A DNA stretch of 64,000 nt, from assembly GCA_001657385.1 (NCBI GenBank), contig LYSZ01000010.1, forward strand, positions 32,394-96,393, read 5' to 3'. The notes below the pieces were generated by a model. It saw only the letters and a list, made by a program, of their open reading frames with translations, did no database searches and was not told the origin of the DNA. This DNA comes from Parvularcula sp. BBD 1991-13 (GTDB taxonomy: Bacteria > Pseudomonadota > Alphaproteobacteria > Caulobacterales > Parvularculaceae). Positions 15,989 through 54,984 of the stretch are shown in pieces (positions within the stretch are counted from its first letter, which is position 1; each line of letters opens with the position of its first letter). The position numbers were made by a program, and so were the translations under genes.

Positions 15989-16546
15989 TCAGCGCTTGGC
16001 GGACTTGCGTTTCGCTGTCTTGCGCTTGGCTTTGGCCGGGGTCTTGCGCTTGGCGGCTTTCTTGGCCGTCTTGCGCTTGGCCGGCGCTTTTTTCTTCGGC
16101 GCGGCGGGCGTTTCTTCCATGGCGTCAAGCGCTTCGGCGTAAGCGCGCAGCGCCTTCATGAACGCGGCCTGCTGCGTTTTCGGCAGGACGGCCAGGGCGG
16201 CGTTTTCCGCTTTGGCGACCTTGCTGTTGGCGGCGGTCAGCATGCGTTTGCCCGCGGCGGTGATGGAAACGGCGTTGGCGCGCGCGTCTTCTTTTGTGCG
16301 TTTGCGAGAAAGCAGGCCCTTTTTCATCATGCGGGCGATCATGTCGGCCAGCGTGGAGCGGTCGATGCCGGTGTGGCGCACGAGGTCGGTCTGGCTGAGG
16401 CCCTCATTGGAGGCGACGACATGCAGGACTTCGTACTGGCGCGGGGTCGGGCCGCTGGATCCGACTTCCTTGGAATAAAGATCGTGAGCGTATTGCTGCG
16501 CGCGGCGCAGGAGGTGCCCCGGGGAGGTTTTAAGCGAGTAAGCCAT
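15989..16546 (-). CDS. MarR family regulator with Lys/Arg/Ala-rich histone-like C-terminal tail
   Basis: GHLLRRAQQ, TPRQYEVL, LSQTDL..GIDRSTLADMIARM, EDARANAVSIT; tail PKKKAPAKRKTAKKAAKRK. Confidence 0.9.
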   Translation of the reverse strand: MAYSLKTSPGHLLRRAQQYAHDLYSKEVGSSGPTPRQYEVLHVVASNEGLSQTDLVRHTGIDRSTLADMIARMMKKGLLSRKRTKEDARANAVSITAAGKRMLTAANSKVAKAENAALAVLPKTQQAAFMKALRAYAEALDAMEETPAAPKKKAPAKRKTAKKAAKRKTPAKAKRKTAKRKSAKR

Positions 16547-16861
16547 GTTTTGCTCCGTTGTTGGCTGTAAGCGAGTCTTCAGTCTCTCAACGCGTTTTTA
16601 CGCCTGTTTCTGCAAGGAAAATCCGATTGCTGCGCATGGCCTATGCGGATTGCTTTAACGCACGTTCCTGGCATGATTCCCTGATAAGCGCAAAATTGCA
16701 CCTGATGCGGATTGTTTGAACCAGACGCCTTAATAAAGTATTGCGCATAATCCCTTGTTGTGGAAAAGGCAAGCCCGCGGGTCGCCGAAACCAGAGATAG
16801 GCCTTAAACTGACATTCAGCAGACGGGCGGATCCGAAAACGCCCGTCCCAAAGGAGGCGGC

Positions 16862-17395
16862 ATGACAAAATCCTATCGGCAGGAGCCGGATTTTGAAAGG
16901 CTGACCCCGCCCGGCGACGACAGGGAGCGGTCCGTGTGCGCCGCCTGCGGCTTCATCGACTACCAGAACCCGAAAATTGTCACCGGATCGGTGGCCGTCT
17001 GGGAGGAGAAAATCCTTTTGTGCAAGCGCGCCATAGAGCCGCGAAAGGGTTACTGGACCTTGCCTGCGGGGTATATGGAGCTTGGCGAAACGGCCGAGGA
17101 ATCGGCGATGCGAGAAGCCTGGGAGGAGGCGCGGGCGCGGCTCGATCTCGACCGGCTGCTCGCCGTCTACAGCGTCCCTCGCATCTCGCAGGTTCAACTG
17201 ATGTTCCGCGCACGCCTCGTCAGTCCGCAGATCGCCGCCGGCCCGGAGAGCGAGGCGGTTGCGTTGTATGCGTGGGAGGATCTTCCTTGGTCGGACATCG
17301 CCTTTCCGACCGTGGGCTGGGCGTTGCGCCATTATCGCGAAACAATGGGACGGGACGATTTCGCCCCTTTCTCCAACCCGGAAGACGGCCTTTGA
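16862..17395 (+). CDS. Zinc-ribbon NUDIX hydrolase
   Basis: CAACG..YQNPKIV; Nudix box GYMELGETAEESAMREAWEEA. Confidence 0.92.
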   Translation: MTKSYRQEPDFERLTPPGDDRERSVCAACGFIDYQNPKIVTGSVAVWEEKILLCKRAIEPRKGYWTLPAGYMELGETAEESAMREAWEEARARLDLDRLLAVYSVPRISQVQLMFRARLVSPQIAAGPESEAVALYAWEDLPWSDIAFPTVGWALRHYRETMGRDDFAPFSNPEDGL

Positions 17396-31928: not shown

Positions 31929-33041
31929 CTACAACAATTCGCAGAGCACGGCGTTCAACAGCCGCCGTCCGCGCGTCGTGGCGGCGAGCCGGCGCCCGTC
32001 CCATGACAAAAGGCCGTCGGCGATGAGGCGGTCGAGCCTTTCCCGGGCGCCGTTCCGGCTGAAAAACGGGTCTTTTTCGTCAAGGGGCATGCCCTCATGC
32101 AGGCGCAGGCCGAAGGAAAAGCGCTCCACGGTCTGATCGTCCTCGCTCAGCGGCGTTTGCGTCGGCGTCCAGTCCGCCGCCAGATAATCCTGCGGGCGCC
32201 GCGGCGTTTGCGTCGCCAGCCTTGCGCCGCCGGACGAGACCCGTCCATGGGCGCCGGGGCCGACGCCGATGTAATCCTGATACGTCCAGTAAAGGCGGTT
32301 GTGACGCGACTGCGCGCCCGGCGCGGCGTGGTTGGAAATTTCGTAAGCGGGCAGGCCCGCCGCCGCCGTCATCTCCTGCGACAGGTCGAACGCATCGGCG
32401 CAGAGCGCATCGTCGGCGGGCGTCCAGCGGCCGGCGGCGACCTGCGCGTCGAAGGCCGTGCCGGGCTCGATGGTGAGTTGGTAGAGGGAGAGATGGCTCA
32501 CGCCGAGGGCGAGGGCCTCGCCCAGCTCCGCGCGCCAGTCGTCCAGCGACTGGTCCGGGCGGGCGTAGATGAGATCGAACGTGGTCCGTTCAAAGACCGT
32601 CCCCGCGGTTGCGATCGCACGGCGCGCGCCGTCGGCGGCGTGGTTGCGGCCGAGGAACGCCAGCGCCTCGTCGCGCAGGGACTGTACGCCCAGCGACAGC
32701 CGGTTCACGCCCGCCGCCGCCAGGTCCGCGAAGCGCGCGCGCTCCGCGTCGGTCGGATTCGCCTCGATGGTGATCTCCGGGTTGCGATCAAAGCCCCACA
32801 GGCGCGCGCAGGCGTCGATCACCCTTTCGACCAGCCGGACCGGCGCCAGCGAGGGCGTTCCGCCGCCGAAATAAAGACTGTCGAGCCTGCGGTTCGGGGT
32901 TCTCGCCGCCCAGTACCCAAGATCGCGCAGGAGCGCGTTCGCCCACGCCTCTTCGTCGACGGCGCGGGTCTTGTAGACGTTGAAATCGCAATAGGGGCAG
33001 ATCCGGGCGCAATAGGGCCAATGGACGTAAACGCCGAGCAA
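31929..33041 (-). CDS. hemW: Radical SAM heme chaperone HemW
   Basis: GVYVHWPYCARICPYCDFN, YFGGGTPS, EANP, NRLSLGVQS, YEISN; TTG start lacks the usual N-terminal leader residues. Confidence 0.93.
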   Translation of the reverse strand: MLGVYVHWPYCARICPYCDFNVYKTRAVDEEAWANALLRDLGYWAARTPNRRLDSLYFGGGTPSLAPVRLVERVIDACARLWGFDRNPEITIEANPTDAERARFADLAAAGVNRLSLGVQSLRDEALAFLGRNHAADGARRAIATAGTVFERTTFDLIYARPDQSLDDWRAELGEALALGVSHLSLYQLTIEPGTAFDAQVAAGRWTPADDALCADAFDLSQEMTAAAGLPAYEISNHAAPGAQSRHNRLYWTYQDYIGVGPGAHGRVSSGGARLATQTPRRPQDYLAADWTPTQTPLSEDDQTVERFSFGLRLHEGMPLDEKDPFFSRNGARERLDRLIADGLLSWDGRRLAATTRGRRLLNAVLCELL

Positions 33042-33049
33042 CGGATGTC

Positions 33050-33514
33050 TTAGTAGAGCGGGAGCGGCTGCTGGGCCGAGGCCGCCACAGGTTGAGCGTT
33101 CTTGAACGTATCGGTGAGATAGTCGAGCACCGGCGAAAATACATCCAGCTTAAGGGTGTCTTTCATTTCATCCAGCGTCACCCATTTGACTTCTGCTATT
33201 TTGTGCTTTTCGACCGGTTCGCCTTCGCCGCGACGGTGCTGACAGAAAAAGTAGTCGATCTTGTGCTTCGTATGCGGATGGATGCGCCGGCCGAGGCGGC
33301 GCAGGGGTTTGCATTCGATATTGGCTTCTTCGAAAACTTCGCGCTTGGTGGCCGCCTTGCTGTTTTCGTGGGGCTCCACCTTGCCGCCGGGGAAGGCCCA
33401 GACAAGATCGCCTTCCGGATTGGCCCGCTTGATGAGCAACACCTTGTCTCCGCGCACGACGACGGCGAGCGCGACAAGAGGCTCCGGAGTCCGGTTGTGT
33501 TCAGCTCTGGCCAT
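33050..33514 (-). CDS. NUDIX hydrolase (soluble, near-canonical Nudix box)
   Basis: GKVEPHENSKAATKREVFEEANI; lower GC than flanks. Confidence 0.88.
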   Translation of the reverse strand: MARAEHNRTPEPLVALAVVVRGDKVLLIKRANPEGDLVWAFPGGKVEPHENSKAATKREVFEEANIECKPLRRLGRRIHPHTKHKIDYFFCQHRRGEGEPVEKHKIAEVKWVTLDEMKDTLKLDVFSPVLDYLTDTFKNAQPVAASAQQPLPLY

Positions 33515-33532
33515 GAATCAACAGATATACGC

Positions 33533-34087
33533 TTAAGAAGCGATGGTTTCAAGATAATCGGCGACTTTGGCGTCCAGATCCGTAGATATCATGGACTTTA
33601 CGTCTCCGGCGTTAACCCAGGCGACATCGTCATTTTCATCACGATCAAGGTTTTTAGCCTCACCTTCGAGGTAGCGGCAAGCAAAATAGTGGACATAGGC
33701 GCCGGTATCGGGATGCGTTCTCTTGCTCAGTTCCGTATCGACTTCGCAGCGGATATTGGTTTCCTTAAACACTTCCTTAACGACCTCCGCGGCCGGAACT
33801 TCACCGGGACGCACGCCGCCGGAGGGAAACTGCCACGACAGCTTCTCTCCCTTGGGGCGCCGCTTGACCATGAGCACCTGGCCGCGCCTAGCGACCACCG
33901 CCGCCGCGACCACGAGGCTCGCCGACCTGGCGACGTCTTTCCGCGTGGGCGGCGGCGCGTCCGTCGATGGCACCGGAGCGGCGGCTGTTCGCCTCCTCGC
34001 CGAGAAATAGACCCTGTAGACCCACATGCCTCCCGCGCCCGTTGTCGCCAGAATTGTTGCGATCGCGGCAAGGCTCGCCAAGTCCAT
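33533..34087 (-). CDS. NUDIX-fold protein with N-terminal membrane anchor and degenerate Nudix box
   Basis: Hydrophobic LAAIATILATTGAGGMWVYRVYF then GGVRPGEVPAAEVVKEVFKETNI. Confidence 0.85.
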   Translation of the reverse strand: MDLASLAAIATILATTGAGGMWVYRVYFSARRRTAAAPVPSTDAPPPTRKDVARSASLVVAAAVVARRGQVLMVKRRPKGEKLSWQFPSGGVRPGEVPAAEVVKEVFKETNIRCEVDTELSKRTHPDTGAYVHYFACRYLEGEAKNLDRDENDDVAWVNAGDVKSMISTDLDAKVADYLETIAS

Positions 34088-34123
34088 CAGGCTGTCTCCG
34101 ACTTGTTTGTGACTTCAAATTGT

Positions 34124-34171
34124 TTTGAAAAGGCAAAAGACGCGGTTGTCAATCTTGCAGGAAATGCAAGA
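34124..34171 (-). promoter_or_regulatory. Putative promoter (TTGACA) with adjacent palindrome TCTTGCA-N5-TGCAAGA for the Nudix pair
   Basis: TTGACA on minus strand at 34152-34147; perfect inverted repeat 34153-34171; -10 element not clear. Confidence 0.5.
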
Positions 34172-34228
34172 TGAAAAAGGCTGTCTTCTATATTTATACA
34201 GCCCTGAAGAACCGGCGCGTCAGGATCC

Positions 34229-34270
34229 TCAAAGCGCGCCCGCGCCCATGGGATCGTCGCGCGCGATCAT
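34229..34270 (-). pseudogene. Probable stranded 5' fragment of hemW ([13 protein letters not shown])
   Basis: ATG overlaps the rdgB stop (ATGA); the peptide joins in register to GVYVHWP of hemW. Confidence 0.5.
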
Positions 34271-34869
34271 CGATCAAGACATGCTTTCTTCAGCTTACGG
34301 AAGGCGTCGGCGCGGTGGGACATGGCGTGCTTGCGCGCCGGCTCCATCTCCCCGAACGTCGTCTCGAAGCCGTCGGGGACGAATATCGGGTCGTAGCCGA
34401 ACCCCCTGTCGCCGCGCGGCGGGAAGACCAGGCGTCCGCGCGCCTCGCCTTCGAACACGATGTCCTCGCCGTCCGGCCAGGCAAGGCAAAGGACGCATAT
34501 GAAGCGGGCCGCGTAATCGGTCGCGCCTTTCGCCTTCAGCGCCGCCTTGACCTTGTCCATGGCCCGGCCGAAATCGCGGGGCTCGCCCGCCCAGCGGGCG
34601 GAGTAAACGCCCGGATCGCCGCCGAGCGCGTCCACCGAAAGGCCGGAATCGTCGGCCAGCGCCGGCAGGTCCGCCCCGTCCGCCGACGCCCGCGCCTTGA
34701 GGCGGGCGTTCGCCTCGAAGGTCGTTCCGGTCTCTTCCGGGTCGGGCAGGCCCAGCGCCGCCGCGGCGACCGGCGCGATCCCGAAGGGTTCCACCAGCTC
34801 CTTGATTTCCCTGATCTTTCCTTCGTTGTGCGAGGCGATGACCAGCCTTCCCGGCGCCAGTTTTCGCAT
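34267..34869 (-). CDS. rdgB: dITP/XTP pyrophosphatase RdgB
   Basis: [46 protein letters not shown]; RBS GGAGGG before ATG 34869. Confidence 0.96.
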
Positions 34870-34906
34870 CCCTCCAGCCATGGTTTTATCCCTTTTCGAA
34901 AAAAAA

Positions 34907-34971
34907 TTATCGTTTTTCGGCAAAAACCGCTTTACATCGTTTTTCGATAAGGCTATATCGAAAATCAACAA
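34907..34971 (+). promoter_or_regulatory. Sigma70 promoter (TTTACA-17-TATATC, GCTATATC) with three (A/T)(T/C)ATCG-N5-C(G/A)(A/G)(T/C)AA operator-like sites
   Basis: -35 at 34931-36, -10 at 34954-59; sites at 34907-23, 34934-50, 34955-71. Confidence 0.6.
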
Positions 34972-35160
34972 GACGGCGGATCAACCGCTGCACGGACAAC
35001 CCGGTCAAAAGATCTCGCAGGAAGCCTGCGCAAGAGGCGATAGACCGGGACGGCCGCAGGCGAAAGACCTGAACCCGGATCAGCATGAGTTCGCGCATAA
35101 GCGGACAAAAATATAAACGAGTAAAAAAATGAGCGGCAGGGAAATCCCTAACCGCTCAAG
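34965..35160 (+). ncRNA. Candidate structured 5' leader or sRNA
   Basis: Nested stems 35000-06/35043-49, 35016-21/35025-30, 35057-60/35068-71, 35130-36/35152-58. Confidence 0.4.
35123..35158 (-). terminator. Intrinsic terminator-like hairpin with U-tract on the minus strand
   Basis: TGAGCGG..GGGA-A-ATCCC..CCGCTCA preceded by A7 on the plus strand. Confidence 0.55.
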
Positions 35161-35498: not shown

Positions 35499-35558
35499 CC
35501 GCGGCCGGCTCTGGACTTTGGGCGCGGCTGCGCTGACGAAAGGAAACGGGAGGGATTG

Positions 35559-36077
35559 ATGCGCGCAATCGGCAAGGGGTCGCTGTCATCCATACTGGCC
35601 GCCGGCCTTCACATCACCCGGATCATCCTCTGGGTCGGGTTCATCGGCCTGTCGGTCGCGATGGTGGTCATTCCGTTTCTGTCGGGCATCCTCGCCCTGG
35701 CGGAAAGCGCTTCGGGCGGCGCGGTCAACGCCGATATCGACGTCGAGCCCGGCGACTATATCGAGGTCTCCCATCATTTCGTCACCTTCGCGGTGATGCT
35801 GTTCGTGGTGAACCGCTTGCTTGAGATTCTCAAAACCCTGCGGTTCGGCGCCCCGTTCGTGAAGGAAAACGCGGACCGCTTCCGCGGGGTCGGCTACGCG
35901 CTCCTCATCGGCGAGGGCGCGAAGATCGCCTTCGGTTTTCTCTCGCTGGTGAACAACGCCGATACCGGCATCGACACCAGCGTTATCTCGTGGCTGTCGA
36001 TCATCGCCGTCTTCGTGCTGGCCGAGGTCTTCCGGGAGGGCGCGCGCATGAAGGAGGAACAGGACCTGACCGTCTGA
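35559..36077 (+). CDS. DUF2975-like membrane protein
   Basis: PFVKENADRF, VLAEVFREGARMKEEQDLTV C-terminus; RBS GGGAGG. Confidence 0.85.
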   Translation: MRAIGKGSLSSILAAGLHITRIILWVGFIGLSVAMVVIPFLSGILALAESASGGAVNADIDVEPGDYIEVSHHFVTFAVMLFVVNRLLEILKTLRFGAPFVKENADRFRGVGYALLIGEGAKIAFGFLSLVNNADTGIDTSVISWLSIIAVFVLAEVFREGARMKEEQDLTV

Positions 36078-36081
36078 CCCC

Positions 36082-36648
36082 ATGGCCGTTTTACCGCTCA
36101 TAGATTTGTTCAAACACGAGGCCCTGCCCGACTGGCGCACCCGCGCCTTCTGGTTCGGCACGCGCCCCACCCTGGCCATGCCGGCGCTGATGATCGGCGT
36201 CGTGTCTTGCCTTTATGTCCTTATCCTGACCAAGCTCGCCGCCGCGCTGCTGTTCTATGCATGGCCCGGGGACGGGGCGCGGTCGCTGGCGCTCGTTCTG
36301 GAGGACGAAATTCCGAACGGGTGGCTGATCGCCAAGGAGACGGCGCTTTACGCCGCCTGCGTTTTCATCGGCGAGAACGCGGCGCGCGCCGCCCTCGACA
36401 TCGCGGCGCTCAAGCCTTTCAGCGACATCAACGCAAAACGGTTCATGCGCGCCGCGGCGGGCGCGGGCGCGGCGGTGGGCTTTCAGTTCTGCGCGCGCCT
36501 CGCCGAGCGGGCGCTGGGCCTGCCCGAGGTCGGCGTCGGCGGCGCAATGGCCGTTTTCGCGGTTCTGACGGGGGCGATCTTCGTCAGCCTCAGCCTGGCT
36601 TTCGCGCAGGGCGCGGAATTGAAAAAAGAACAGGACCTGACGGTCTGA
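36082..36648 (+). CDS. Second DUF2975-like membrane protein
   Basis: PFSDINAKRF, LSLAFAQGAELKKEQDLTV; same C-terminal motif as upstream gene. Confidence 0.78.
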   Translation: MAVLPLIDLFKHEALPDWRTRAFWFGTRPTLAMPALMIGVVSCLYVLILTKLAAALLFYAWPGDGARSLALVLEDEIPNGWLIAKETALYAACVFIGENAARAALDIAALKPFSDINAKRFMRAAAGAGAAVGFQFCARLAERALGLPEVGVGGAMAVFAVLTGAIFVSLSLAFAQGAELKKEQDLTV

Positions 36649-36854
36649 TGGCGATTTCCGTCAAGCTGGACCGCGTTCTTCTGGACAAGGGCATGTCGCT
36701 GACCGAGCTGTCGGAGCGCGTCGGCGTGACCATCGCCAATCTGTCCATTCTCAAGACCGGCAAGGCCAAGGCGATCCGTTTTTCCACCCTGGAGGCGATC
36801 TGCCGGGAGCTTGACTGTCAGCCCGGGGACATTCTCTTTTTCGACGACGGCTAG
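36648..36854 (+). CDS. XRE/Cro HTH transcriptional regulator (YozG-like)
   Basis: MSLTELSERVGVTIANLSILKTGKAKAIRFSTLEAICRELDCQPGDIL; TGATG coupled. Confidence 0.93.
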   Translation: MAISVKLDRVLLDKGMSLTELSERVGVTIANLSILKTGKAKAIRFSTLEAICRELDCQPGDILFFDDG

Positions 36855-47594: not shown

Positions 47595-50500
47595 CTATAG
47601 CATACGCTCGAAAGCGTGATCGAGCATATCTTTCGGCACTTCGGCAAGGCGCGCCGCGTAGGTCCATAACAGCGCGCAGCGGATCTCATGATCGGGATAG
47701 ATTTCCTGAAGCAGCGCGCGATACGCCGCCAGTTGCGCGATATAGGCCGGGTTCGCGCGGCGGATGTCGTCCGGGGGCGGGCGGTTGGTTTTGTAATCCA
47801 CGATCAGCACCTCGCGCGCGGAAACGGCCAGGCGGTCGATCTGGCCTGAAATCCGCACATTTTCCGGCGCGCCTCGCGGCCTGCCCGCCACGGCGACTTC
47901 GGCCCGGGAGCCGGGGGCGAAGACCGCCGCGAAGGCCGGCTCGGCAAGGACCGTCATGACTTCCTCGCGCCAGGCCGCGCGTTCGCCGGAAGGCAGATCG
48001 CCCGCCAGCGCGCCGAGCAGCCGGTCGGCGGCGGCGCGCCGCGCGTCCGGCGCGATGTCCGGCAGAAGCTCCAGCAGGCGATGCAGCGTGCGTCCGCGGA
48101 AATAACGGTCGCGGGCGAGCGTCGGCGGATAAACCGGTTCGCCGGCCGCGGCGTCATCGCGGTCGCCGTCGGGGCCGTCCGCCCCGCCCTCGCGCCGGGG
48201 GCTTGCGTCGCTTTCGCCGACAAGCCGCGAGGGAACGATCCGCCTGGGGCCGGCTTCCGGCGCCGCCGGTTCGAAAAGCCATGGCGGGGGCGCGGCCGCC
48301 GGCGCCTCCTGAGCAGCCCCGGCGGCGAACTGGCCGGCAGACTGGTCAGCGGACTGGCCGGCGGACTGGTCTGCGGTTTGGGCGGCGGCGGTCTGGCGGC
48401 TTGAGAGCCGGCGCAGCGGCGCGCCGCCGCTCGGCCAGAACGCATCCCGGCCTTCCTCCACCGCGTCGGCGAGGCGATCGAAAGCGTCCTGCGCCAGGGC
48501 GTGCCATGACTTGACGGCGACGTCCTTGTCCCGCGCGTCGCCCTTGCGCCCGTCCTCGACGCCGCAAATATACAGCCGGTCGCGCGCGCGGGTCGCGGCG
48601 ACGTAGAAAAGCCGGCGGTATTCCTCGTAGTCCCGGCGTTTTTTCTCCGCCCGGGCTTCATCCGTACGCGGTGTATCGCGCCCGGCGGCGCCGGCCAGCA
48701 CGCTTAACGGCGCGCGTAAAGGCGCGTCGTCGCCCGCGCTCGCGGAAAGCTTGAGCACGCCGTCGGAGACCTGGCGCGGCGTGCGGTGGGCGTCGATCAG
48801 GAAGACGATATTCGCCTCCAGCCCCTTGGCGCCGTGGGTCGTCATTACGCGGACGGCGTCCGTCGCCTGCTCCATCTCCCGTTTGATGTCGCCGGCGTTC
48901 GCCTCGAACCAGGAGAGAAAGCTGCGCAGGCTGCGCGGGCGGCTGTTCTCGTAATGCAGCGCCTGGCGCAGGAGTTCGTCGACGCCGTCGCGGGCCGCTT
49001 CGCCCAGCCGTCCGTGAAACCGTTTGCGTCCGGATCGTTTGCCGTCGGATTCGAGGATATGACAGAAGAACGAATACGGCCCTTCATTCCGGCCTGTCGA
49101 CCGGGCGGCGGCGATTTCCTCGCCGGCGCGCGCCCAGCGGGGGTTTTCCCCCGCGCGCGCCCGCAGCGCCGACCACAGGCTCTGGCCCGGCGCGCGCGGA
49201 TGGGCGAGGGGGAACAGGTCCGTATCGTCGTCAAAGCCGAAAAGCGGGCTTTTCAACACCTCCGCCAGGGACAGGTCGTCATTTTCGTAGAGCGCCGTCC
49301 TGGCGTAGGACAACAGGTCTTCGACGGCCGGATCCTCAAGCAGGCGCAGGCGGTCCGCGCCGGCGACCGGCACGCCCGCGGCGGCGAGGCGGCGGATGAC
49401 CTCCTCGAACAGCGCGCCGCGGCTCTGTACAAGGATCATCACGTCGCCCGGCGCGATCGCACGCGCGCGGGACTCCAAAACGGCGCCGGCGTCGATCCAG
49501 CCGCCGATGATCGATGCGATGCGCGCGCTCAGGGCCTTGACCGGATGATCCTCGGCGGGGGCGTCTACCGGCGCGTCCCAAGGGTTCGGTTTTTCCGTAT
49601 CGGGACGGGGCGCCAGCGGCCACAATTCGACCAGCCCCGCCTCTCCCTCGCGCTGGACGCCGTGGGCCGGGATCGGATAATCGCCGAGCCCCTCGGCGGC
49701 GGCGCGGTCGTTGAATGTTTCATCGACGAAGCGCAGCACCGGCGCGGCGGTGCGGAACGACAAGGTCAGCGGCACGTTGTCGTAAGGCGCGACCGCGCCA
49801 AGCCGCTTGCCGAGGTCCAGTTCCTTCTCGCGGAACAGCGCGACGTCCGCGCCCTGGAACGAATAGATCGACTGTTTCATGTCGCCGACCGCGAAGAAGC
49901 TGCGCGCCTCGGCGCGCGCGCCGGCGCCGCTCAGATAATCCGCGAACAGCGCTTCGATGACCGCCCACTGGGCGGGGCTCGTATCCTGCGCTTCGTCGAT
50001 CAGGATATGATCGACGCCGTAGTCCAGTTTGTACATGACCCAGGCATTATCTGTATGCTGAAATAGCGTCAGCGCCCGCGCGATCAGGTCGTCGAAATCG
50101 AGGGCGGCGCGGGCCGCCTTGGCGGCGGCGTAGCGGGTGATCGCCGCGTCGGTCAGGCGATAATAGGCGGCGCTGTCGTGGAAGATGTCCAGCGCACGCA
50201 CGGCGCCGGCCGCCTCGGCGAACGCGCCCTGCATCCGGTCGAGCCTGTCCCGCGCCGCCGGATCGGCCTTGTCCGTCGCCTTGGTGGCGATTTTGTCGCG
50301 CGGTTTGCCGGCGGCGGTCAGGAACAGCTTTTCAAGCGCCGCCCACTGATCGTCCGTCGCGTCGGCGTCGAGAAAGGTCTGAATGTGCGCGGCGAGCTTG
50401 GCGGGATTGCCGCCGGATTGATGCAGCGCTTCGTAACAGCGCTCCAGGTCGTGACGCGGCAGCGCCGCGAGAAACGACCGCCGCGCCGCCTCGGCGGTCG

Positions 50501-51209
50501 TTTCCGGATCGACGCCGAGCGCTTCGGCCAACGCGCCGCAAACGCCGCGCACATCGCCGCCATGGGCGCGCAGCGCGGTTTCGAACTCCAGCCGGGCCGC
50601 CGCCCCGCCGCGCAGGAGATCGCGCAGTTGCCGTTCGTTTCGCGCGCGCCCGAGCCGGCGCAAGTCAGCGCCGAGACTGTCGTCATAGAGCGCATTGCGG
50701 GCGAGATCGTTCAGCGCGTCGCCCGCCAGCCGCCGCGCCTCCGCGTCCTCAAGGACGGTAAAGCCCGGCGGCGCCCCCGCCTCGATCGGAAAGCGCCGAA
50801 GCGCGCTTTCGCAGAACGAGTGGATGGTCTGGATTTTCAGCCCGCCCGGCGTCTCCAGGGCGCGCGCGAACAGCCGACGGGCGTTCGCAAGCTCCGCGGC
50901 CCCGCGCGGGGCCGCGCCGGGGCCTTCCAGCGCAGCGAGCGCCGCGTTGAGACGGTCGTCGTCGAAAAGCGCCCAGGCGCCGAGAACGTTGAACAGCCGC
51001 TCCGCCATTTCCGCCGCCGCGGCTTTCGTGAAGGTGATGCAGAGGATCTTTTCCGGCGCCGCGCCCGCCAGCAGCAGCCGCGCCACGCGATTGGTCAGGA
51101 CACGGGTTTTCCCCGAGCCTGCGTTCGCCATGACGAACGCGGACCGTCCGGGGGTCGCCGCCTTGCGCTGGTTGCGGGTGGTCTCGTCGAGGAGCGACGG
51201 CGCGGTCAT
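47595..51209 (-). CDS. addA: Double-strand break repair helicase-nuclease AddA
   Basis: ANAGSGKT, TFTKAAA, IDEAQDT, VGDMKQSIY, HGAKGLE, GQIDRL..DYKT. Confidence 0.96.
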   Translation of the reverse strand: MTAPSLLDETTRNQRKAATPGRSAFVMANAGSGKTRVLTNRVARLLLAGAAPEKILCITFTKAAAAEMAERLFNVLGAWALFDDDRLNAALAALEGPGAAPRGAAELANARRLFARALETPGGLKIQTIHSFCESALRRFPIEAGAPPGFTVLEDAEARRLAGDALNDLARNALYDDSLGADLRRLGRARNERQLRDLLRGGAAARLEFETALRAHGGDVRGVCGALAEALGVDPETTAEAARRSFLAALPRHDLERCYEALHQSGGNPAKLAAHIQTFLDADATDDQWAALEKLFLTAAGKPRDKIATKATDKADPAARDRLDRMQGAFAEAAGAVRALDIFHDSAAYYRLTDAAITRYAAAKAARAALDFDDLIARALTLFQHTDNAWVMYKLDYGVDHILIDEAQDTSPAQWAVIEALFADYLSGAGARAEARSFFAVGDMKQSIYSFQGADVALFREKELDLGKRLGAVAPYDNVPLTLSFRTAAPVLRFVDETFNDRAAAEGLGDYPIPAHGVQREGEAGLVELWPLAPRPDTEKPNPWDAPVDAPAEDHPVKALSARIASIIGGWIDAGAVLESRARAIAPGDVMILVQSRGALFEEVIRRLAAAGVPVAGADRLRLLEDPAVEDLLSYARTALYENDDLSLAEVLKSPLFGFDDDTDLFPLAHPRAPGQSLWSALRARAGENPRWARAGEEIAAARSTGRNEGPYSFFCHILESDGKRSGRKRFHGRLGEAARDGVDELLRQALHYENSRPRSLRSFLSWFEANAGDIKREMEQATDAVRVMTTHGAKGLEANIVFLIDAHRTPRQVSDGVLKLSASAGDDAPLRAPLSVLAGAAGRDTPRTDEARAEKKRRDYEEYRRLFYVAATRARDRLYICGVEDGRKGDARDKDVAVKSWHALAQDAFDRLADAVEEGRDAFWPSGGAPLRRLSSRQTAAAQTADQSAGQSADQSAGQFAAGAAQEAPAAAPPPWLFEPAAPEAGPRRIVPSRLVGESDASPRREGGADGPDGDRDDAAAGEPVYPPTLARDRYFRGRTLHRLLELLPDIAPDARRAAADRLLGALAGDLPSGERAAWREEVMTVLAEPAFAAVFAPGSRAEVAVAGRPRGAPENVRISGQIDRLAVSAREVLIVDYKTNRPPPDDIRRANPAYIAQLAAYRALLQEIYPDHEIRCALLWTYAARLAEVPKDMLDHAFERML
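48329..48376 (+). repeat. 4 x 12-bp in-frame repeat in the AddA linker (DQSAGQSADQSAGQ)
   Basis: ACTGG(C/T)C.GC.G units at 48329, 48341, 48353, 48365. Confidence 0.8.
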
Positions 51210-54200
51210 GGGCCGGCCCCCTCGGCTGTCTCGCCTTGTGCATTGCGCTCGCGGCGCCGCGCAAGATGGTCGTAGTCCCCATAGGCGTCCATGAATTGCG
51301 GGCGCGGCTGGGAAAGGTAGGGCGTGGACGGATCGTTAAAGTGACGCAGCAGGGCGATCAGCCCTTCATGCGCCTCCCGCGCAAGCGCCTCGGCTTTTGC
51401 GCCCTGCGCGCCGACCGTGTCCGCCGCGGCGTTGCCGCGACCGATCACGCGCACATAGTCGAAGCCGGCGACCGTGACCGGGCCCAGCGCCGCGAAGCCG
51501 CCGCGCGCGGCGATGATCGCGGTCAGAGGCAGTTGCGGGCTGAATGTCGCCTGTTGTTTCAGGCTCGGCGGCGCGCCGGTCTTGTAGTCGATGATCTGCG
51601 CCGTTCCGTCATGGAGCCGGTCGATCCGGTCGGCCCGCGCGGACAGGCGGAAGTCGCGCCCGTCAAGGGTGAAATCCCAGGCGCCTTCGCCCTCGATGAC
51701 GGCCGGCGCGCCGCGCGCGCTGCGTTCGGCGTCCCAGGCGGCGAGCCAGTCCAGCGCCGCCTCGATGCGGCTCGACCAGAAGGCGCGGTGATCCGCGGTC
51801 AGACCGTAGTCTTCCGCATGCGCATCGACAAGCCGCGCCAGGGCGGCGACCCTTTCCTTGTGGGTTTGCGGCGGCGCGGCCTGCGCGTAGTCCTGGAGCG
51901 CCCGGTGGAAGAGCTCCCCCGCCTGGCGCGCGCCGAACGGATCGTCCAGAATGTCGAGTTTTTTCAGCCGCAGAACGGCGCGGGCGTAAATGGCGTAAGG
52001 GTCGCGCATCAGCTTTTCGATGCGGGTGACGAAAAACGCCGCCGGGCGCGCCTCGACCGGCGGGCGCGGGCGGGGCGCCGGCGCGGGCGCGACCTTCGCC
52101 GGCGCATCGAGACGGCGCGCGAGGCCTTCGCACCACGGCCCGCGCTCGACGCCGGACAGCGCGTCGGCGCCTTTCAGGATGTTCTTGAGCCTGACGATCC
52201 AGCGCGAGGGTTTGGCGGGCTTGCCCCCGGCGCGGGCCGCGCGGGTCAGCATCAGCCGCGGCGCGGCGGCGAGCTGCATGAAGTCATGCGCGGCGAGACC
52301 GATCCGCCGTTCGGGCGAGGGCAGGCCGAGATCTCTTCGCATTGGCCGCGACAGGAACGGATCGATCGCCGCGTCCCGCGGCCAGACCCCTTCGTTGAGC
52401 CCGCCGAGGATGACCGTGTCCGCGGTTTGCAGCCGCGCCTCCAGGGGGCCGAGGATCGACAGCCGCGGATGGCCGCGGTCGCGGCGGCGCACGCTCGCGC
52501 CGGCGATCAGACGGGCGAATATCGCCGGGTAATCGCGCGCGCGGTCATGTGCGATATGGTCGAGCCCGTCCCGCAACTGCGCCAGCAGCGCCGCCCCCGT
52601 TTCCCCGTCGGGACCCCGCCACAGCCGTCCGGGCGCGTCCCCGGCGGTTTCGGCGAGACGCTCGCTGATCTCAAGATGCGCGTCGAGCCGCGAGGCGAAG
52701 GCCGCGTCCGCTTTCGGCCACCGCCCGGCCGCCGCGGCGATCTGTGCAAAGAGTTCCTCGCCTTCCTCCGCAAAGGCCGGGTCTTCCGCCAGTTTGCGCC
52801 GCAGCCCGTCGACGCCGGGCCGCGGACGGAGCCCGCGCAAGGCCCGGTCGAACGCCAGCGTCGCCTTGCGGCGCGCTCCCGGCGCCATGGCGCCGCCGAA
52901 CAGAGGATGGTCGAGCATCGCCATCAGGGCGACCGGATCGGCGATATCGGCGAGCCAGGCGGCGGTCAGGCGCAAAAACGTTCCGCATGGTGAATTTGAG
53001 AACGGAACGCCGCCGGAATCGTCCACCGAAATCCCCCAGCGGCGCATTTTCGCCGAGACCCGGCGGGCGAGGTCCCGGTCGGGGGTCACGAGCATGGCCG
53101 TCCCGCCGCCGCTTTGCGCGGTTTCGCGCAGTTTCAACGCAATGGCCGCGGCTTCAAGCTCCTCGTCAGGCGCTTCCACGAGTTCGACCCCCTCAAGCGC
53201 GCGGGCGAGCGTTTCGGGATGGGCGCGCGCGTCCTCGGCCCAGCCGCGCCAGTCGTCCGAGGCGTCGGCGGGACGAAGCGCCATGGTCAACAGACCGGTT
53301 CGCGCCGCGGCCCGCGCGTCTTGAGGCGGCGCGAGGAAGGCGACGTCGGACCGCGAAATGCTCAGGGTGGAGAGCAACTCCTTCAGCCCGCTCTGGGGGT
53401 GCGGTTCGTCCACCGCCGTCCAGACATGATCGGGCGCGCCCTGATCGAGCCCCGGCAGGATGACGGCGCCCCGCGGCAGGGCGGCGACGGTTTTCATCAT
53501 GCGCGCCACCGCCGGGGTCGATCCGGTGGTGCCGGCGATGATGACCGGCGTTTGCGGCGGCGCCCTGCGCCAGGCGGCGGCCTGCCGCTCGATCAGGGCG
53601 ATGCGCCGTTCCGCCGGATCCATCCGCCCGCGCGCGGCGAGATAGGCCGGCCAGGTCCGGGTGACGATCGAGAGAAAGTCCAGATTGCGCCGCCAGTGAT
53701 CCGCGAGCGCGTCCGGCGCCAGGGTTTCGAAGCGGGTGAAGTCTATTTCTTCCGTATAAAGCGAATCCAGCAGCTTGCCCAGCTCGTCCGCCGCGGCGAC
53801 GGCGCCGGCCCAGTCCCGCTGGCCGTCGAAAAAGGCCTTGTCCTTTTCCGCCACCATACGCGCCAGCGCCAGGCGCCGCTCCGACGACGAAATGACGGGG
53901 GCGAGCGCCGCGCGCCCCTCGCCCCTTTCGCTGTCGCTCCCTTCGCTGACGCCCTCATCGCTGTAGACCGGCGCGCCGTCGAAGACGTCGAGCGCATCCT
54001 CCTCCGCATCGCCAAGGGCCCGGATCCGCGGCAACAGGCTTGCGCGTCCGTTCGGCGCCGTATCCACGAACGCATCCAGCAATCCGCGTACCGCGCGTCG
54101 CGTCGGCAGGTAGACAAGCGCGTCCGACAGGGCGACGGGATCGCCGCCGGCAGAATCGCGCAAGGCGGCTGCAAGCTCGCGCAAAAACGCCCGGCCCGGC

Positions 54201-54253
54201 GCGATGGTGAAGTAGCGCGGGGTCGCGCCCGAGAAGAGCGCCGGCGCCGTCAC
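51206..54253 (-). CDS. addB: Double-strand break repair protein AddB
   Basis: LPTRRA, GTTGSTP, VDDSGG, ILGPLEARL, ARADRID..DYKTG; GTG start overlapping murU stop. Confidence 0.94.
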   Translation of the reverse strand: MTAPALFSGATPRYFTIAPGRAFLRELAAALRDSAGGDPVALSDALVYLPTRRAVRGLLDAFVDTAPNGRASLLPRIRALGDAEEDALDVFDGAPVYSDEGVSEGSDSERGEGRAALAPVISSSERRLALARMVAEKDKAFFDGQRDWAGAVAAADELGKLLDSLYTEEIDFTRFETLAPDALADHWRRNLDFLSIVTRTWPAYLAARGRMDPAERRIALIERQAAAWRRAPPQTPVIIAGTTGSTPAVARMMKTVAALPRGAVILPGLDQGAPDHVWTAVDEPHPQSGLKELLSTLSISRSDVAFLAPPQDARAAARTGLLTMALRPADASDDWRGWAEDARAHPETLARALEGVELVEAPDEELEAAAIALKLRETAQSGGGTAMLVTPDRDLARRVSAKMRRWGISVDDSGGVPFSNSPCGTFLRLTAAWLADIADPVALMAMLDHPLFGGAMAPGARRKATLAFDRALRGLRPRPGVDGLRRKLAEDPAFAEEGEELFAQIAAAAGRWPKADAAFASRLDAHLEISERLAETAGDAPGRLWRGPDGETGAALLAQLRDGLDHIAHDRARDYPAIFARLIAGASVRRRDRGHPRLSILGPLEARLQTADTVILGGLNEGVWPRDAAIDPFLSRPMRRDLGLPSPERRIGLAAHDFMQLAAAPRLMLTRAARAGGKPAKPSRWIVRLKNILKGADALSGVERGPWCEGLARRLDAPAKVAPAPAPRPRPPVEARPAAFFVTRIEKLMRDPYAIYARAVLRLKKLDILDDPFGARQAGELFHRALQDYAQAAPPQTHKERVAALARLVDAHAEDYGLTADHRAFWSSRIEAALDWLAAWDAERSARGAPAVIEGEGAWDFTLDGRDFRLSARADRIDRLHDGTAQIIDYKTGAPPSLKQQATFSPQLPLTAIIAARGGFAALGPVTVAGFDYVRVIGRGNAAADTVGAQGAKAEALAREAHEGLIALLRHFNDPSTPYLSQPRPQFMDAYGDYDHLARRRERNAQGETAEGAGP

Positions 54254-54984
54254 GCGCGCCCGGCGAGGCGCCGTTCGGCCTCTTCCAGCCCCGCCGGATC
54301 GCCCACATGCAGCCAGAACCCGTCGATGACCGCGCCGTAAAGACGGCCGCGCGCGGCGGCCTTGTCCCACAGGAGCCGGGTCGAAAACGGGCCGTCCGGC
54401 CCTTCGGCGACAAGCGCCGGCGCGATGATCTGGAGGCCGGTGAACACATAAGGCGCGCGCGCGCCGGCGCGCAGCGCGATGCGGCCGTCCTTGTCCTGAT
54501 CAAAGTCGCCCTTGCCGGCATACCCGCTGGTCGCCTCGATCGGGATCAGGAGGAGAAGGGCGTCCATCGCCGCGCCGTCCCAGCGCTCGGCGAGGGCGCG
54601 GCAGCCCTCGCGCGCGCCGTCGACGAGAATGGCGTCGGTGTTGGCGCAGTAGAATGGCTTCGCGCCGAAATGCGGCAGCGCTTTTTTCAGGCCGCCGCCG
54701 GTCTCCAGCAGCGCGCCGCGTTCGTCGGAGATGACGATCCGCGGCGGCGCCGGGCGTTGCGCCAGATGCGCCTCCATCTGGTCGGCGCGGTAGTGCACGT
54801 TGACGACCGCTTGCGTCACGCCGGCTTGCGCGAACCGGTCGAGGGCGTAATCGATGAGCGTCTTGCCCGCGACCCGGATCAGCGGCTTGGGTGTTGCGTC
54901 CGTCAGCGGGCGCATCCGCGTGCCGAGGCCGGCGGCGAGCAGCATGGCCGCATCCGGGCCGGCGTCGCGCGCGGCGCCCATCAC
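54250..54984 (-). CDS. murU: Nucleotidyltransferase, MurU-like (MurNAc-1P uridylyltransferase)
   Basis: MLLAAGLGTRMRPLT..PKPL, LLETGGG, WLHVGDP; follows amgK. Confidence 0.85.
   Translation of the reverse strand: MMGAARDAGPDAAMLLAAGLGTRMRPLTDATPKPLIRVAGKTLIDYALDRFAQAGVTQAVVNVHYRADQMEAHLAQRPAPPRIVISDERGALLETGGGLKKALPHFGAKPFYCANTDAILVDGAREGCRALAERWDGAAMDALLLLIPIEATSGYAGKGDFDQDKDGRIALRAGARAPYVFTGLQIIAPALVAEGPDGPFSTRLLWDKAAARGRLYGAVIDGFWLHVGDPAGLEEAERRLAGRA

What the first reader, a model, noticed from the sequence alone, without database searches (positions are those of the whole stretch)
33042..34228. Lower-GC cassette of two paralogous Nudix proteins: a membrane-anchored degenerate copy plus a near-canonical copy
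Seen: the two domains align without gaps (..WxFPxGxVxPxE..EVFxExNIxC..R(T/I)HPxT..YFxC..). Copy A has an N-terminal TM helix and a broken Nudix box (KEVFKE for REUxEE) and an acidic C-terminal half (DRDENDD). Copy B has an intact REVFEE and a basic surface (RRLGRR, HRR, KHK). Some 60-nt stretches are 45-48% GC versus ~70% in the flanks, and the cassette has its own TTGACA promoter. Inference: a horizontally acquired heterodimeric sensor/effector pair, possibly anti-phage or nucleotide-signal processing. Nudix effectors with TM anchors occur in defence systems, and the RxHPxT motif recalls Nudix proteins of actinomycete integrative elements (from memory, unverified).
Basis: partly seen in the sequence, partly recalled or inferred. 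Interest (0 to 1): 0.72.

Follow-up and report, generated by a model that had tools for sequence, protein, structure and literature searches.

The report
Split pseudo-Nudix plus active Nudix module
Two small adjacent genes inserted between two housekeeping genes encode a probably membrane-tethered, catalytically degenerate Nudix protein and an intact Nudix hydrolase; the same ordered pair recurs elsewhere as one fused protein carrying immune-type or DNA-binding heads, which suggests an undescribed accessory nucleotide-sensing or nucleotide-clearing module rather than ordinary MutT housekeeping.

Summary
Two minus-strand genes, nudA (33533-34087, 184 aa) and nudB (33050-33514, 154 aa), are both Nudix proteins and are 37% identical. 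NudA has a hydrophobic N-terminus and a KEVFKE box. NudB has an intact Gx5Ex7REVFEE box. GC is 0.59 against 0.67 for the window.

The pair sits between rdgB and hemW. These two genes abut directly in about 70 of 80 related alphaproteobacterial loci, and none of the 80 has a Nudix there. One Tara Oceans scaffold has the same insertion, with the same dS as the flanks and dN/dS of 0.19 and 0.10. The cassette is therefore an old insertion that is still under selection.

An exhaustive HMMER search found at least 22 proteins that fuse a NudA-type degenerate domain to a NudB-type canonical domain, always in that order. Their N-terminal heads are a TM helix, XRE-HTH, TIR, HD-CE, DprA/SLOG, an alpha/beta-hydrolase-like domain or a Rossmann-like domain. 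At least 11 further contigs carry the pair as two adjacent genes, and some relatives lie on AICE-like or conjugative elements.

The heterodimer and horizontal-acquisition inferences are supported. The anti-phage function is plausible but untested: there are no defence neighbours here, and the only PADLOC hit is the unvalidated candidate PDC-S07. I found no published description of this two-Nudix module.

The parts
33533..34087 (-). nudA: 184-aa A-type (degenerate) Nudix protein, made of an N-terminal hydrophobic segment, a variable linker and a Nudix domain
   Evidence: ORF. Pfam NUDIX 2.3e-16. Scores 153 bits on the HMM of fusion-protein domain 1 against 127 on domain 2. dN/dS 0.19 against the ortholog. 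AF2 domain pLDDT above 90.
34016..34081 (-). Codons 3-24 of nudA: probable single membrane anchor (LASLAAIATILATTGAGGMWVY), followed by RVYFSARRR
   Evidence: KD19 of 1.36 is marginal. 21 of 24 codons are unchanged in the ortholog. Aligns with strongly hydrophobic N-termini of homologs. AF2 confidence is low. The N-out, C-in topology is inferred from the positive-inside rule.
33752..33820 (-). Degenerate Nudix box of NudA (G90...E96...K104-E-V-F-K108-E109-T-N-I)
   Evidence: Read directly from the sequence. The same two positions (box Arg and first Glu of EE) vary freely across 17 A-type proteins and 22 fusion domain-1 sequences, while E105, E109 and T110 stay conserved.
33050..33514 (-). nudB: 154-aa B-type (canonical) Nudix hydrolase, the predicted catalytic subunit
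   Evidence: Pfam NUDIX 1.7e-22. Scores 145 bits on the domain-2 HMM against 120 on domain 1. dN/dS 0.095. The closest solved sequences are MutT-like enzymes, E about 1e-7.
33317..33385 (-). Intact Nudix box of NudB (G44-x5-E50-x7-R58-E-V-F-E-E-A-N-I)
   Evidence: Read directly from the sequence. The corresponding G, E, R, E, E, E columns are invariant in domain 2 of all 22 fusion proteins.
33515..33532 (-). 18-nt spacer between nudA and nudB. The two genes are in the same reading frame, separated by TAA plus six codons that include a TGA
   Evidence: Sequence. The same 573-nt start-to-start spacing is found in L081. The split falls where the fusion proteins have their inter-domain linker.
34088..34266 (-). 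Leader between rdgB and nudA, holding TTGACA (34152-34147), a conserved TTTTGCCTTTTCAAAACA block and a GGAG Shine-Dalgarno (34099-34096)
   Evidence: These blocks are conserved with L081 while the rest of the spacer has diverged. No full sigma-70 consensus is found.
34267..34881 (-). rdgB (Ham1-family non-canonical purine NTP pyrophosphatase): the upstream boundary of the insertion, not part of the module
   Evidence: Pfam Ham1p_like 1.9e-62. NCBIfam TIGR00042 scores above its cutoff.
31929..33041 (-). hemW (radical-SAM heme chaperone): the downstream boundary. Its TTG start lies 8 nt after the nudB stop
   Evidence: NCBIfam TIGR00539 scores 255 bits against a cutoff of 205. The junction differs from L081 by a 4-nt indel.

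Best explanation
nudA and nudB are the two halves of one accessory Nudix module, acquired by insertion into the rdgB-hemW intergenic gap.

NudB is the catalytically competent pyrophosphohydrolase. NudA is a paralogous Nudix fold that has lost two signature catalytic positions. It probably serves as the ligand-binding, regulatory and membrane-tethering partner, and the two most likely form a pseudo-dimer equivalent to the single-chain NudA-NudB fusions found in other bacteria.

The module most likely binds and hydrolyses a nucleotide-derived small molecule (NDP-X or a non-canonical NTP) at the cytoplasmic face of the inner membrane. It acts as an accessory function related to conflict or to mobile elements, not as general MutT housekeeping.

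Shown: the gene structure, the paralogy, the box states, the insertion, purifying selection, and the recurrence of the ordered A-then-B pair as fusions and as operons.

Inferred: the physical heterodimer, the membrane anchoring, NudA as a non-catalytic sensor, the substrate class and the biological role.
For: 1. Insertion. rdgB is followed by hemW within about 20-100 bp in about 70 of 80 related loci, and none of the 80 has a Nudix in the gap. The closest relatives carry a STAND-like ATPase or an MBL-fold gene there instead. GC and GC3 are depressed in both carriers.

2. Selection. dS of nudA and nudB (0.57, 0.64) equals that of the flanks (0.56, 0.58). dN/dS is 0.19 and 0.095.

3. Fusions. 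An exhaustive phmmer search with NudA puts 300-700-aa proteins with two matched stretches at the top. In 22 of them, domain 1 has a degenerate box and domain 2 an invariant G..E..RE..EE. HMMs built from the two domain sets separate all 44 domains correctly. They also assign NudA to type 1 and NudB to type 2.

4. Split pairs. The same A-then-B order is found as separate adjacent genes in L081, in L088/L089, and in 10 of 17 metagenome loci.

5. N-terminal heads of the fusion proteins are a TM helix, XRE-HTH, TIR_2, HD-CE, DprA/SLOG and an alpha/beta-hydrolase (DUF676-like) domain. A Trypsin_2 head is seen on a single-domain A-type protein.

6. Mobile contexts of relatives. These include an AICE-like locus with integrase, a GntR domain and HTH_17. 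The TIR fusion lies in a four-gene operon between TraG/VirD4 coupling-protein genes. Another relative lies next to a PIN toxin-antitoxin pair.

7. Structure. The AF2 model of the TM fusion P0013 has pLDDT 89, with an N-terminal helix and two Nudix folds joined by a very short linker.

8. Precedents for non-catalytic Nudix sensors and Nudix immunity factors. The TRPM2 NUDT9H domain senses ADP-ribose without hydrolysing it (PMC4974056). Pif of pSAM2 is a Nudix conjugal immunity factor (PMC2440964).
Against: No interaction, membrane localisation, activity or phenotype has been measured.

The NudA N-terminus is only marginally hydrophobic and AF2 is unsure of it.

NudA keeps E96, E105 and E109, so residual catalysis cannot be excluded.

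The 64-kb window is otherwise housekeeping and holds no defence system. The GajB hits are due to an AddA-like helicase.

No INPHARED phage genome carries a match, and only three IMG/VR contigs do: two Streptomyces-like HTH pairs and one distant Nudix.

The position directly after rdgB, a nucleotide-pool sanitiser, would also fit a house-cleaning role.

Some A-type genes stand without a B-type neighbour, so the partnership is not obligatory across the family.
Confidence: 0.62

Rival explanations
1. Stand-alone immune module. NudA is a sensor-effector whose pseudo-Nudix domain binds an infection-derived or mobile-element-derived nucleotide and then drives its N-terminal helix to oligomerise and damage the membrane. 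This parallels the TIR, HD and hydrolase heads of its relatives. NudB degrades the ligand to set the threshold or reset the switch.
For: The N-terminal heads are the effector repertoire typical of conflict systems. Relatives lie on ICE and AICE elements. Both proteins hit PADLOC PDC-S07. Nudix proteins with N-terminal TM helices are reported as predicted CBASS and UG23 effectors (PMC9226505). A NUDIX integron cassette was reported among cassettes that confer phage resistance (bioRxiv 10.1101/2024.07.02.601719).
Against: There is only one weakly hydrophobic helix. No signal-generating enzyme or other defence gene lies nearby. PDC-S07 is an untested candidate whose model scores NudB no better than generic Pfam NUDIX does (66 against 80 bits). 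The pair has been inherited vertically for a long time inside a housekeeping operon.
Confidence: 0.22
2. Ordinary nucleotide-pool sanitation. NudB, alone or with NudA, is a MutT/NudG/MutT2-like (d)NTP pyrophosphatase recruited next to rdgB to extend house-cleaning. NudA is a decaying or merely structural duplicate.
For: The best solved-structure matches are MutT, CTP pyrophosphohydrolase, MutT2 and NUDT15. The best NCBIfam hits are MutT and NudG models. The pair is co-oriented with rdgB. Public sources name relatives 'MutT'.
Against: All NCBIfam equivalog scores are far below cutoff, for example 38 against 98 bits for TIGR00586. The pair is absent from all 80 related genomes at this locus. NudA is under purifying selection, not decaying. 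The A-then-B pairing and its fusions to TIR, HD and HTH heads are not expected of a housekeeping enzyme. The same gap carries unrelated cargo in relatives, so adjacency to rdgB is probably incidental.
Confidence: 0.12
3. The similarity and adjacency are incidental: two unrelated Nudix genes that happen to lie side by side with no functional coupling.
For: Nudix genes are abundant. A third, unrelated Nudix lies elsewhere in the window.
Against: The ordered pairing recurs in at least 11 independent contigs and in 22 fusions. The spacer is 18 nt and the genes share a reading frame. Both genes were inserted and retained together.
Confidence: 0.03

Closest known systems
Pif (pSAM2 immunity factor) and the 'Nud' genes of actinomycete integrative and conjugative elements
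   Same: Both are small Nudix proteins carried as accessory genes of mobile elements. In Pif the Nudix motif is needed for immunity (PMC2440964). AICEs also carry clusters of an HD phosphohydrolase, a Nudix and an XRE regulator, which mirrors the HD- and XRE-headed fusions of this family. An HTH-NudA plus NudB pair sits in an AICE-like locus.
   Different: The window pair lies in a chromosomal housekeeping operon of an alphaproteobacterium, with no integrase or transfer genes. It has a TM head rather than an HTH.
NudC / NUDT12 (NADH pyrophosphatase, NAD-cap decapping enzyme)
   Same: The architecture is a non-catalytic Nudix-like N-terminal domain followed by a catalytic Nudix domain. These are the top Foldseek hits to the two-domain model.
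   Different: The relative domain arrangement does not superpose (rmsd 12-13 A, TM about 0.35). Sequence identity is 11-15%. A zinc-binding motif was not looked for. Here the two domains are separate polypeptides.
TRPM2 NUDT9-homology domain (and, from memory, NrtR-type ADP-ribose-sensing repressors)
   Same: Both are precedents for a Nudix fold that has lost hydrolysis and acts as a ligand sensor. In TRPM2 the sensor controls a membrane protein (PMC4974056); in NrtR it controls a DNA-binding domain. This is the role proposed here for NudA and for the HTH-headed relatives.
   Different: There is no sequence relationship beyond the superfamily. The NCBIfam NtrR model hits NudB only at E 0.003. 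The ligand here is unknown, and a separate active Nudix partner is an added feature.
TM-Nudix effectors of CBASS and UG23 reverse-transcriptase systems
   Same: N-terminal transmembrane helices are joined to a C-terminal Nudix domain in predicted defence effectors (PMC9226505).
   Different: Those have two TM helices and are encoded next to a CD-NTase or a reverse transcriptase. Neither is present in the window. NudA hits no PADLOC model other than PDC-S07.
PADLOC candidate PDC-S07
   Same: Both proteins match this 135-position Nudix model (E 8.5e-15 and 6.1e-19).
   Different: It is a single-gene candidate for which I found no functional test in the papers checked. Its score is no better than that of generic Pfam NUDIX.
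MutT / NudG / MutT2 small NTP pyrophosphatases
   Same: The single-domain fold and size match, and NudB has the full Nudix box. These are the best single-domain structural matches.
   Different: All equivalog models score far below their cutoffs. The distribution is patchy and the genes are inserted. NudB is paired with a degenerate partner.

Membership tests
Nudix superfamily (Pfam PF00293) | Whole-protein score above the Pfam gathering cutoff (21.1 bits) | tested here: met
   NudA scores 60.4 bits and NudB 80.3 bits. The AF2 model of the NudA domain has pLDDT above 90 with the alternating strand and helix elements expected of a Nudix domain.
Catalytically competent Nudix hydrolase | Complete box Gx5Ex7REUxEExGU | tested here: met
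   This row is for NudB: G44, E50, R58, E59, E62 and E63 are all present, with Asn for the last Gly. Activity itself was not measured.
Catalytically competent Nudix hydrolase | Complete box Gx5Ex7REUxEExGU | tested here: not met
   This row is for NudA: R is replaced by K104 and the first E of EE by K108. The same two positions vary freely across the A-type family.
Two-Nudix module (A-type degenerate followed by B-type canonical), defined here | Gene 1 scores higher on the domain-1 HMM, gene 2 scores higher on the domain-2 HMM, and the genes are adjacent in that order | tested here: met
   NudA scores 153 against 127 bits, and NudB 120 against 145 bits. The spacer is 18 nt. The control of 44 of 44 fusion domains classifying correctly is not independent, because the HMMs were built from those same domains.
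MutT (8-oxo-dGTP diphosphatase) and NudG (pyrimidine NTP diphosphatase) equivalogs | NCBIfam equivalog score above cutoff | tested here: not met
   For TIGR00586, NudB scores 38.3 and NudA 28.9 bits against a cutoff of 97.9. For NF007834 they score 41.5 and 33.1 against a cutoff of 156.
PADLOC PDC-S07 (candidate single-gene defence) | Match to HMM PDLC04899 | tested here: inconclusive
   Both proteins match (52.6 and 66 bits). PADLOC's own threshold is not shown, the model behaves as a generic small-Nudix model, and the candidate is unvalidated.
CBASS / UG23 TM-Nudix effector | Adjacent CD-NTase or UG23 reverse transcriptase, and two N-terminal TM helices | tested here: not met
   No such gene is found among the 53 ORFs of the window. 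There is a single marginal hydrophobic segment.
AICE Nud / Pif | Located on an integrative element with int, xis, rep, tra and kor genes | tested here: not met
   The window flanks are rdgB, hemW, rsmI, an LpoA-like gene and DUF2975 genes. No tRNA and no flanking repeats were found. Relatives do lie on such elements.
AICE Nud / Pif | Sequence homology to Pif of pSAM2 | not testable with these tools
   The pSAM2 record is not in the collections.
NudC / NUDT12 | Superposable arrangement of N-terminal and catalytic domains, with a zinc motif | tested here: not met
   Foldseek gives rmsd 12-13 A and TM 0.31-0.41 for the two-domain model. A zinc-binding cysteine motif was not specifically searched for.

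The most novel reading that the evidence does not exclude
The A-type pseudo-Nudix domain is a previously unrecognised receptor domain of prokaryotic immune and mobile-element-immunity proteins. On this reading it senses a nucleotide-derived alarm or 'self' signal and actuates interchangeable N-terminal heads (TM helix, TIR, HD-CE, SLOG, alpha/beta hydrolase, protease, HTH). The obligately paired canonical Nudix acts as a built-in signal-clearing enzyme. The window pair would be a minimal, split, membrane-acting version, domesticated in a chromosomal operon.
Probability: 0.2. Interest if true: 0.85.

Novelty: new variant of a known kind. Interest (0 to 1): 0.6.

Why it matters
Nudix proteins on mobile elements and in defence-candidate lists have no known mechanism. 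Examples are Pif of pSAM2, the AICE Nud genes and PADLOC PDC-S07. This locus leads to a simple organising rule: a degenerate Nudix domain always comes first and a canonical one second. The two are either fused or adjacent, behind swappable TIR, HD, SLOG, hydrolase, HTH or TM heads. That gives a concrete, testable two-subunit model for these proteins, with a sensor or regulator plus a hydrolase. It also gives a small two-gene system (339 residues in all) in which to test it. If the pseudo-Nudix is a receptor, this would add a new sensor fold to bacterial immune signalling. It could also explain how Pif-type conjugal immunity works. If not, the pair is still a clean case of cargo insertion into a recurrent hot spot between rdgB and hemW.

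Tried and rejected
- Recent tandem duplication: rejected. Each gene is closer to its own type elsewhere than to its neighbour.
- Insertion-sequence or integron-type borders: no flanking direct or inverted repeats of note, and no tRNA.
- Known RNA elements in the window: none at Rfam gathering score.
- A full sigma-70 promoter for the cassette: not found.
- Defence island: a PADLOC scan of 53 window ORFs gave only PDC-S07 (the three Nudix proteins) and GajB hits caused by an AddA-like helicase.
- Phage origin: no INPHARED phage match to the fusion protein. Three IMG/VR contigs matched: two Streptomyces-like HTH pairs and one distant Nudix.
- Plasmids: only six Streptomyces records with weak single-domain matches.
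- Archaeal tandem Nudix locus L086: its second, degenerate Nudix does not belong to this family, scoring 38 and 50 bits.
- Word-indexed homology searches were nearly blind to this family, giving 2-10 hits. Only the exhaustive search revealed it.
- Sequencing runs containing the locus: none could be listed, so there is no expression evidence.
- Metagenome scans with broad alignments failed for lack of conserved stretches. A narrower alignment worked.
- The pSAM2 record was not available.
- Literature searches for 'tandem Nudix' and 'two Nudix domains' found nothing relevant to bacteria.
Full report
**What is there**

On the minus strand, between 33050 and 34087, lie two ORFs 18 nt apart and in the same reading frame. 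They are nudA (33533-34087, 184 aa) and nudB (33050-33514, 154 aa). Both match Pfam NUDIX, with E 2.3e-16 and 1.7e-22. They are 37% identical over 132 residues, BLASTP E 7e-29.

NudB has a complete Nudix box, G44-x5-E50-x7-REVFEE-A-N-I. NudA has G90-x5-E96-x7-KEVFKE-T-N-I, so the box arginine and the first glutamate of 'EE' are both lysine.

NudA carries 55 extra N-terminal residues:
- A hydrophobic stretch at residues 3-24, followed by RVYFSARRR.
- A proline- and alanine-rich linker.

The hydrophobic stretch is only marginal by Kyte-Doolittle (1.36), and AF2 is not confident about it. Several observations still make a membrane anchor probable, though not proven:
- It is the best-conserved part of the gene against the ortholog, with 3 changed codons of 24. 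The linker has 21 of 31 changed.
- A conserved GGAG precedes the ATG.
- It aligns with strongly hydrophobic N-termini in many homologs.

The domain pI is 5.4 for NudA and 8.05 for NudB.

GC is 0.589 against a window mean of 0.67. Only 2.5% of equal-length windows are as low. GC3 is 0.68-0.71 against 0.84-0.86 in the neighbouring genes.

TTGACA at 34152-34147 lies in a conserved block, but no acceptable -10 element was found.

**Where it sits**

Upstream is rdgB (Ham1 family) and downstream is hemW. Both score above their NCBIfam cutoffs. I fetched 80 loci encoding relatives of RdgB from one-genome-per-species bacterial collections and mapped hemW and the two Nudix proteins onto them.
- In about 70 loci hemW follows rdgB within roughly 20-100 bp.
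- No locus has a Nudix in the gap.
- The loci with the most similar HemW have other cargo in the same gap. L001 has an AAA_16/STAND-like ATPase. L016 and L019 have a secreted metallo-beta-lactamase-fold protein. L013, L049 and L065 have a 129-aa membrane protein.

The rdgB-hemW junction is therefore a recurrent cargo site, and the Nudix pair is one such cargo. I found no repeats, tRNA or recombinase that would mark the mechanism of insertion.

**Age and selection**

One other contig, a Tara Oceans scaffold (L081), has rdgB-nudA-nudB-hemW in the same order. Its NudA is 83% and its NudB 88% identical to the window proteins. Nei-Gojobori estimates are:

| Gene | dS | dN/dS |
|---|---|---|
| rdgB | 0.56 | 0.22 |
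| nudA | 0.57 | 0.19 |
| nudB | 0.64 | 0.095 |
| hemW | 0.58 | 0.25 |

The cassette predates the split of these two genomes and has since been inherited vertically. Both genes, including the 'degenerate' one, are constrained at least as strongly as the housekeeping flanks. NudA is not a decaying duplicate.

**The wider family**

Word-indexed searches found almost nothing. An exhaustive phmmer search with NudA against 1.84 billion representatives gave 3076 hits at E up to 1e-3. Its top ranks were filled by proteins of 300-700 aa with two matched stretches.

In 22 such proteins the arrangement is consistent:
- The first Nudix domain resembles NudA and has a degenerate box. Only the second Glu of EE and the following Thr are invariant.
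- The second domain resembles NudB. Its G, E, R, E, E, E box columns are invariant in all 22.

I built HMMs separately from the 22 first and the 22 second domains. They assign all 44 domains to the right class, although these are the sequences the HMMs were built from. They score window NudA at 153 against 127 bits and NudB at 120 against 145 bits.

The same order, A-type gene then B-type gene, appears as separate adjacent genes in several places:
- L088/L089, where a TM-headed A-type gene is followed 5-20 nt later by a canonical Nudix with RIHPTT.
- 10 of 17 metagenome loci found with a family pattern, where the two genes lie in different frames and in some cases overlap.

Each window gene is closer to its own type in other organisms than to its neighbour. 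NudA scores 137 bits to P0028, NudB scores 130 bits to domain 2 of P0021, and the two score 92 bits to each other. The pair is therefore an old two-part module, not a local duplication. The window version is the split form, and the break falls where the fusions have their inter-domain linker.

**What is attached to the module elsewhere**

Pfam and sequence inspection show these heads in front of the two-domain fusions:
- single TM helices;
- XRE-type HTH domains, seen by eye in high-GC, actinomycete-like sequences and not recognised by Pfam;
- TIR_2;
- HD-CE;
- a DprA/SLOG domain;
- an alpha/beta-hydrolase (DUF676-like) domain;
- a Rossmann-like domain (below Pfam cutoff).

Single-domain A-type proteins carry TM, TIR, HD-CE and trypsin-like peptidase heads. 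About twenty of them have N-terminal segments with KD above 2.

Contexts I could inspect include:
- An AICE-like locus with an ORF matching Phage_integrase and GntR, an HTH_17 protein and a further Nudix (L099).
- A TIR-NudA-NudB gene inside a four-gene operon flanked by two TraG/VirD4 coupling-protein genes.
- A TM fusion next to a PIN/DUF433 pair.
- Loci near an integrase or an HNH-helicase.
- One plain metabolic neighbourhood (L088).

The review PMC2440964 states that most AICEs encode a Nudix hydrolase. It also states that Pif of pSAM2 is a Nudix protein whose motif is needed for conjugal immunity, and that several AICEs share an HD-phosphohydrolase + Nudix + XRE cluster. I could not compare the Pif sequence itself.

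**Structure**

AF2 on the TM-headed fusion P0013, using the 22-sequence alignment, gave mean pLDDT 89. The model has an N-terminal helix (residues 3-34), a disordered spacer, and two Nudix folds joined by only a few residues.

Foldseek against the PDB ranks NudC/NUDT12 first. These enzymes also have a non-catalytic Nudix-like domain ahead of the catalytic one. However, the rmsd is 12-13 A, so the domain arrangement differs. Single-domain matches are NudG, MutT2, NUDT15 and NUDX1.

By sequence, the nearest solved proteins are alphaproteobacterial MutT-like enzymes, at E 1e-7 to 1e-10. All NCBIfam equivalog models score far below their cutoffs. No substrate can be assigned.

**Most likely mechanism**

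I take the pair to be one functional unit. NudB is the hydrolase. NudA is a catalytically impaired, ligand-binding or regulatory partner that also tethers the complex to the cytoplasmic face of the membrane.

The pairing rests on the fusions and on the conserved gene order. The division of labour rests on the contrast between invariant catalytic columns in B-type domains and free variation at two of them in A-type domains. A-type domains nevertheless keep their own invariant set (W85, F87, P88, E109, T110, R123, H125, Y134, G142, N146, E151, N152, W157), which suggests a preserved pocket.

Precedents exist for Nudix folds that bind but do not hydrolyse and that control a membrane protein or a DNA-binding domain. 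One is TRPM2 NUDT9H (PMC4974056). Another, from memory, is NrtR.

Whether the biological role is defence or mobile-element immunity remains open. The heads and the mobile contexts point that way. Against it:
- the window itself is housekeeping;
- the only defence-database hit is the unvalidated PDC-S07, which scores no better than generic NUDIX;
- the pair has been stably inherited inside an operon whose downstream gene, hemW, now starts 8 nt after nudB.

A house-cleaning role beside rdgB remains a minority alternative.

**Novelty**

Nudix proteins on mobile elements, TM-Nudix effectors and small Nudix defence candidates are all known (PMC2440964, PMC9226505, PADLOC). Searches of the held literature for tandem, double or two-domain Nudix proteins in bacteria found no description of an ordered pseudo-Nudix + Nudix module with interchangeable heads. 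I therefore rate this a new variant of a known kind.

Noticed in passing
window 34882-35000 (minus strand), and L081, L001, L016 upstream of rdgB: An AT-rich non-coding element of about 110 nt lies directly upstream of rdgB. It is conserved almost base for base in four genomes whose RdgB proteins are only 66-81% identical. It holds a GC hairpin (GCGGCGGTTGATCCGCCGT) and three CGAAAA(A)CGAT(A)-like repeats that end at the start codon. It has no Rfam match. It may be a regulatory leader or an operator.
   Followed up: partly
L001 6690-7874; L016 6621-7496; L019 6588-7397; L013 4029-4508; L049 5650-6039; L065 6721-7110: The rdgB-hemW intergenic gap is a recurrent cargo site in related alphaproteobacteria. 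It holds an AAA_16/STAND-like ATPase (L001), a secreted metallo-beta-lactamase-fold protein (L016, L019), or a 129-aa membrane protein with a weak DUF6750 match (L013, L049, L065).
   Followed up: partly
window 16862-17395 (+): A third Nudix gene (177 aa) resembles the solved structure 3cng (E 4e-43). It is unrelated to the NudA/NudB family, scoring 21 and 35 bits on the two domain HMMs. It lies in another lower-GC patch (about 16000-17300, GC 0.56-0.59).
   Followed up: partly
window 33515-33535: nudA and nudB are in the same reading frame, separated by TAA plus six codons that include a TGA. The same 573-nt spacing is found in L081. The layout looks like a fusion gene split by stop codons, or the reverse. 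Other split pairs are in different frames.
   Followed up: partly
window 33030-33060; L081 8405-8530: The hemW start (TTG at 33041) lies 8 nt after the nudB stop. L081 has a 4-nt indel there, and its hemW call overlaps nudB by 50 nt. hemW has lost the N-terminal residues seen in relatives, and its expression probably now depends on transcription through the cassette.
   Followed up: no
window 35556-36854 (+): Two tandem DUF2975 membrane-protein genes and a small HTH gene lie divergent from rdgB. In L081 the syntenic small gene is called HTH_26. GC is somewhat lower (0.60-0.66). One DUF2975 gene and the HTH gene are also present in L081.
   Followed up: no
L116 6049-12175: The TIR-NudA-NudB protein P0022 sits in a tight four-gene operon: a ClpP-like protease, a 797-aa protein with no Pfam match, P0022, and a 644-aa protein with no Pfam match. 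Two TraG/VirD4-type coupling-protein genes lie just upstream, on the opposite strand. This looks like a candidate multi-gene conflict system on a conjugative element.
   Followed up: no
window 47595-54370 (-): Two large ORFs here are the likely source of the UvrD-helicase and two PD-(D/E)XK nuclease matches in the window-wide scan, which would make them AddAB-like. The per-ORF assignment was not shown. The helicase accounts for the many PADLOC 'GajB' hits, which are not evidence of a Gabija system.
   Followed up: partly
L086 424-1336: An archaeal contig (eIF2-alpha, RadA and SRP54 neighbours) has a canonical Nudix followed by a Nudix with the degenerate box KKIKES, next to a uracil-DNA glycosylase. 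The second protein does not belong to the A-type family (38 and 50 bits). This may be an independent case of the same theme.
   Followed up: partly
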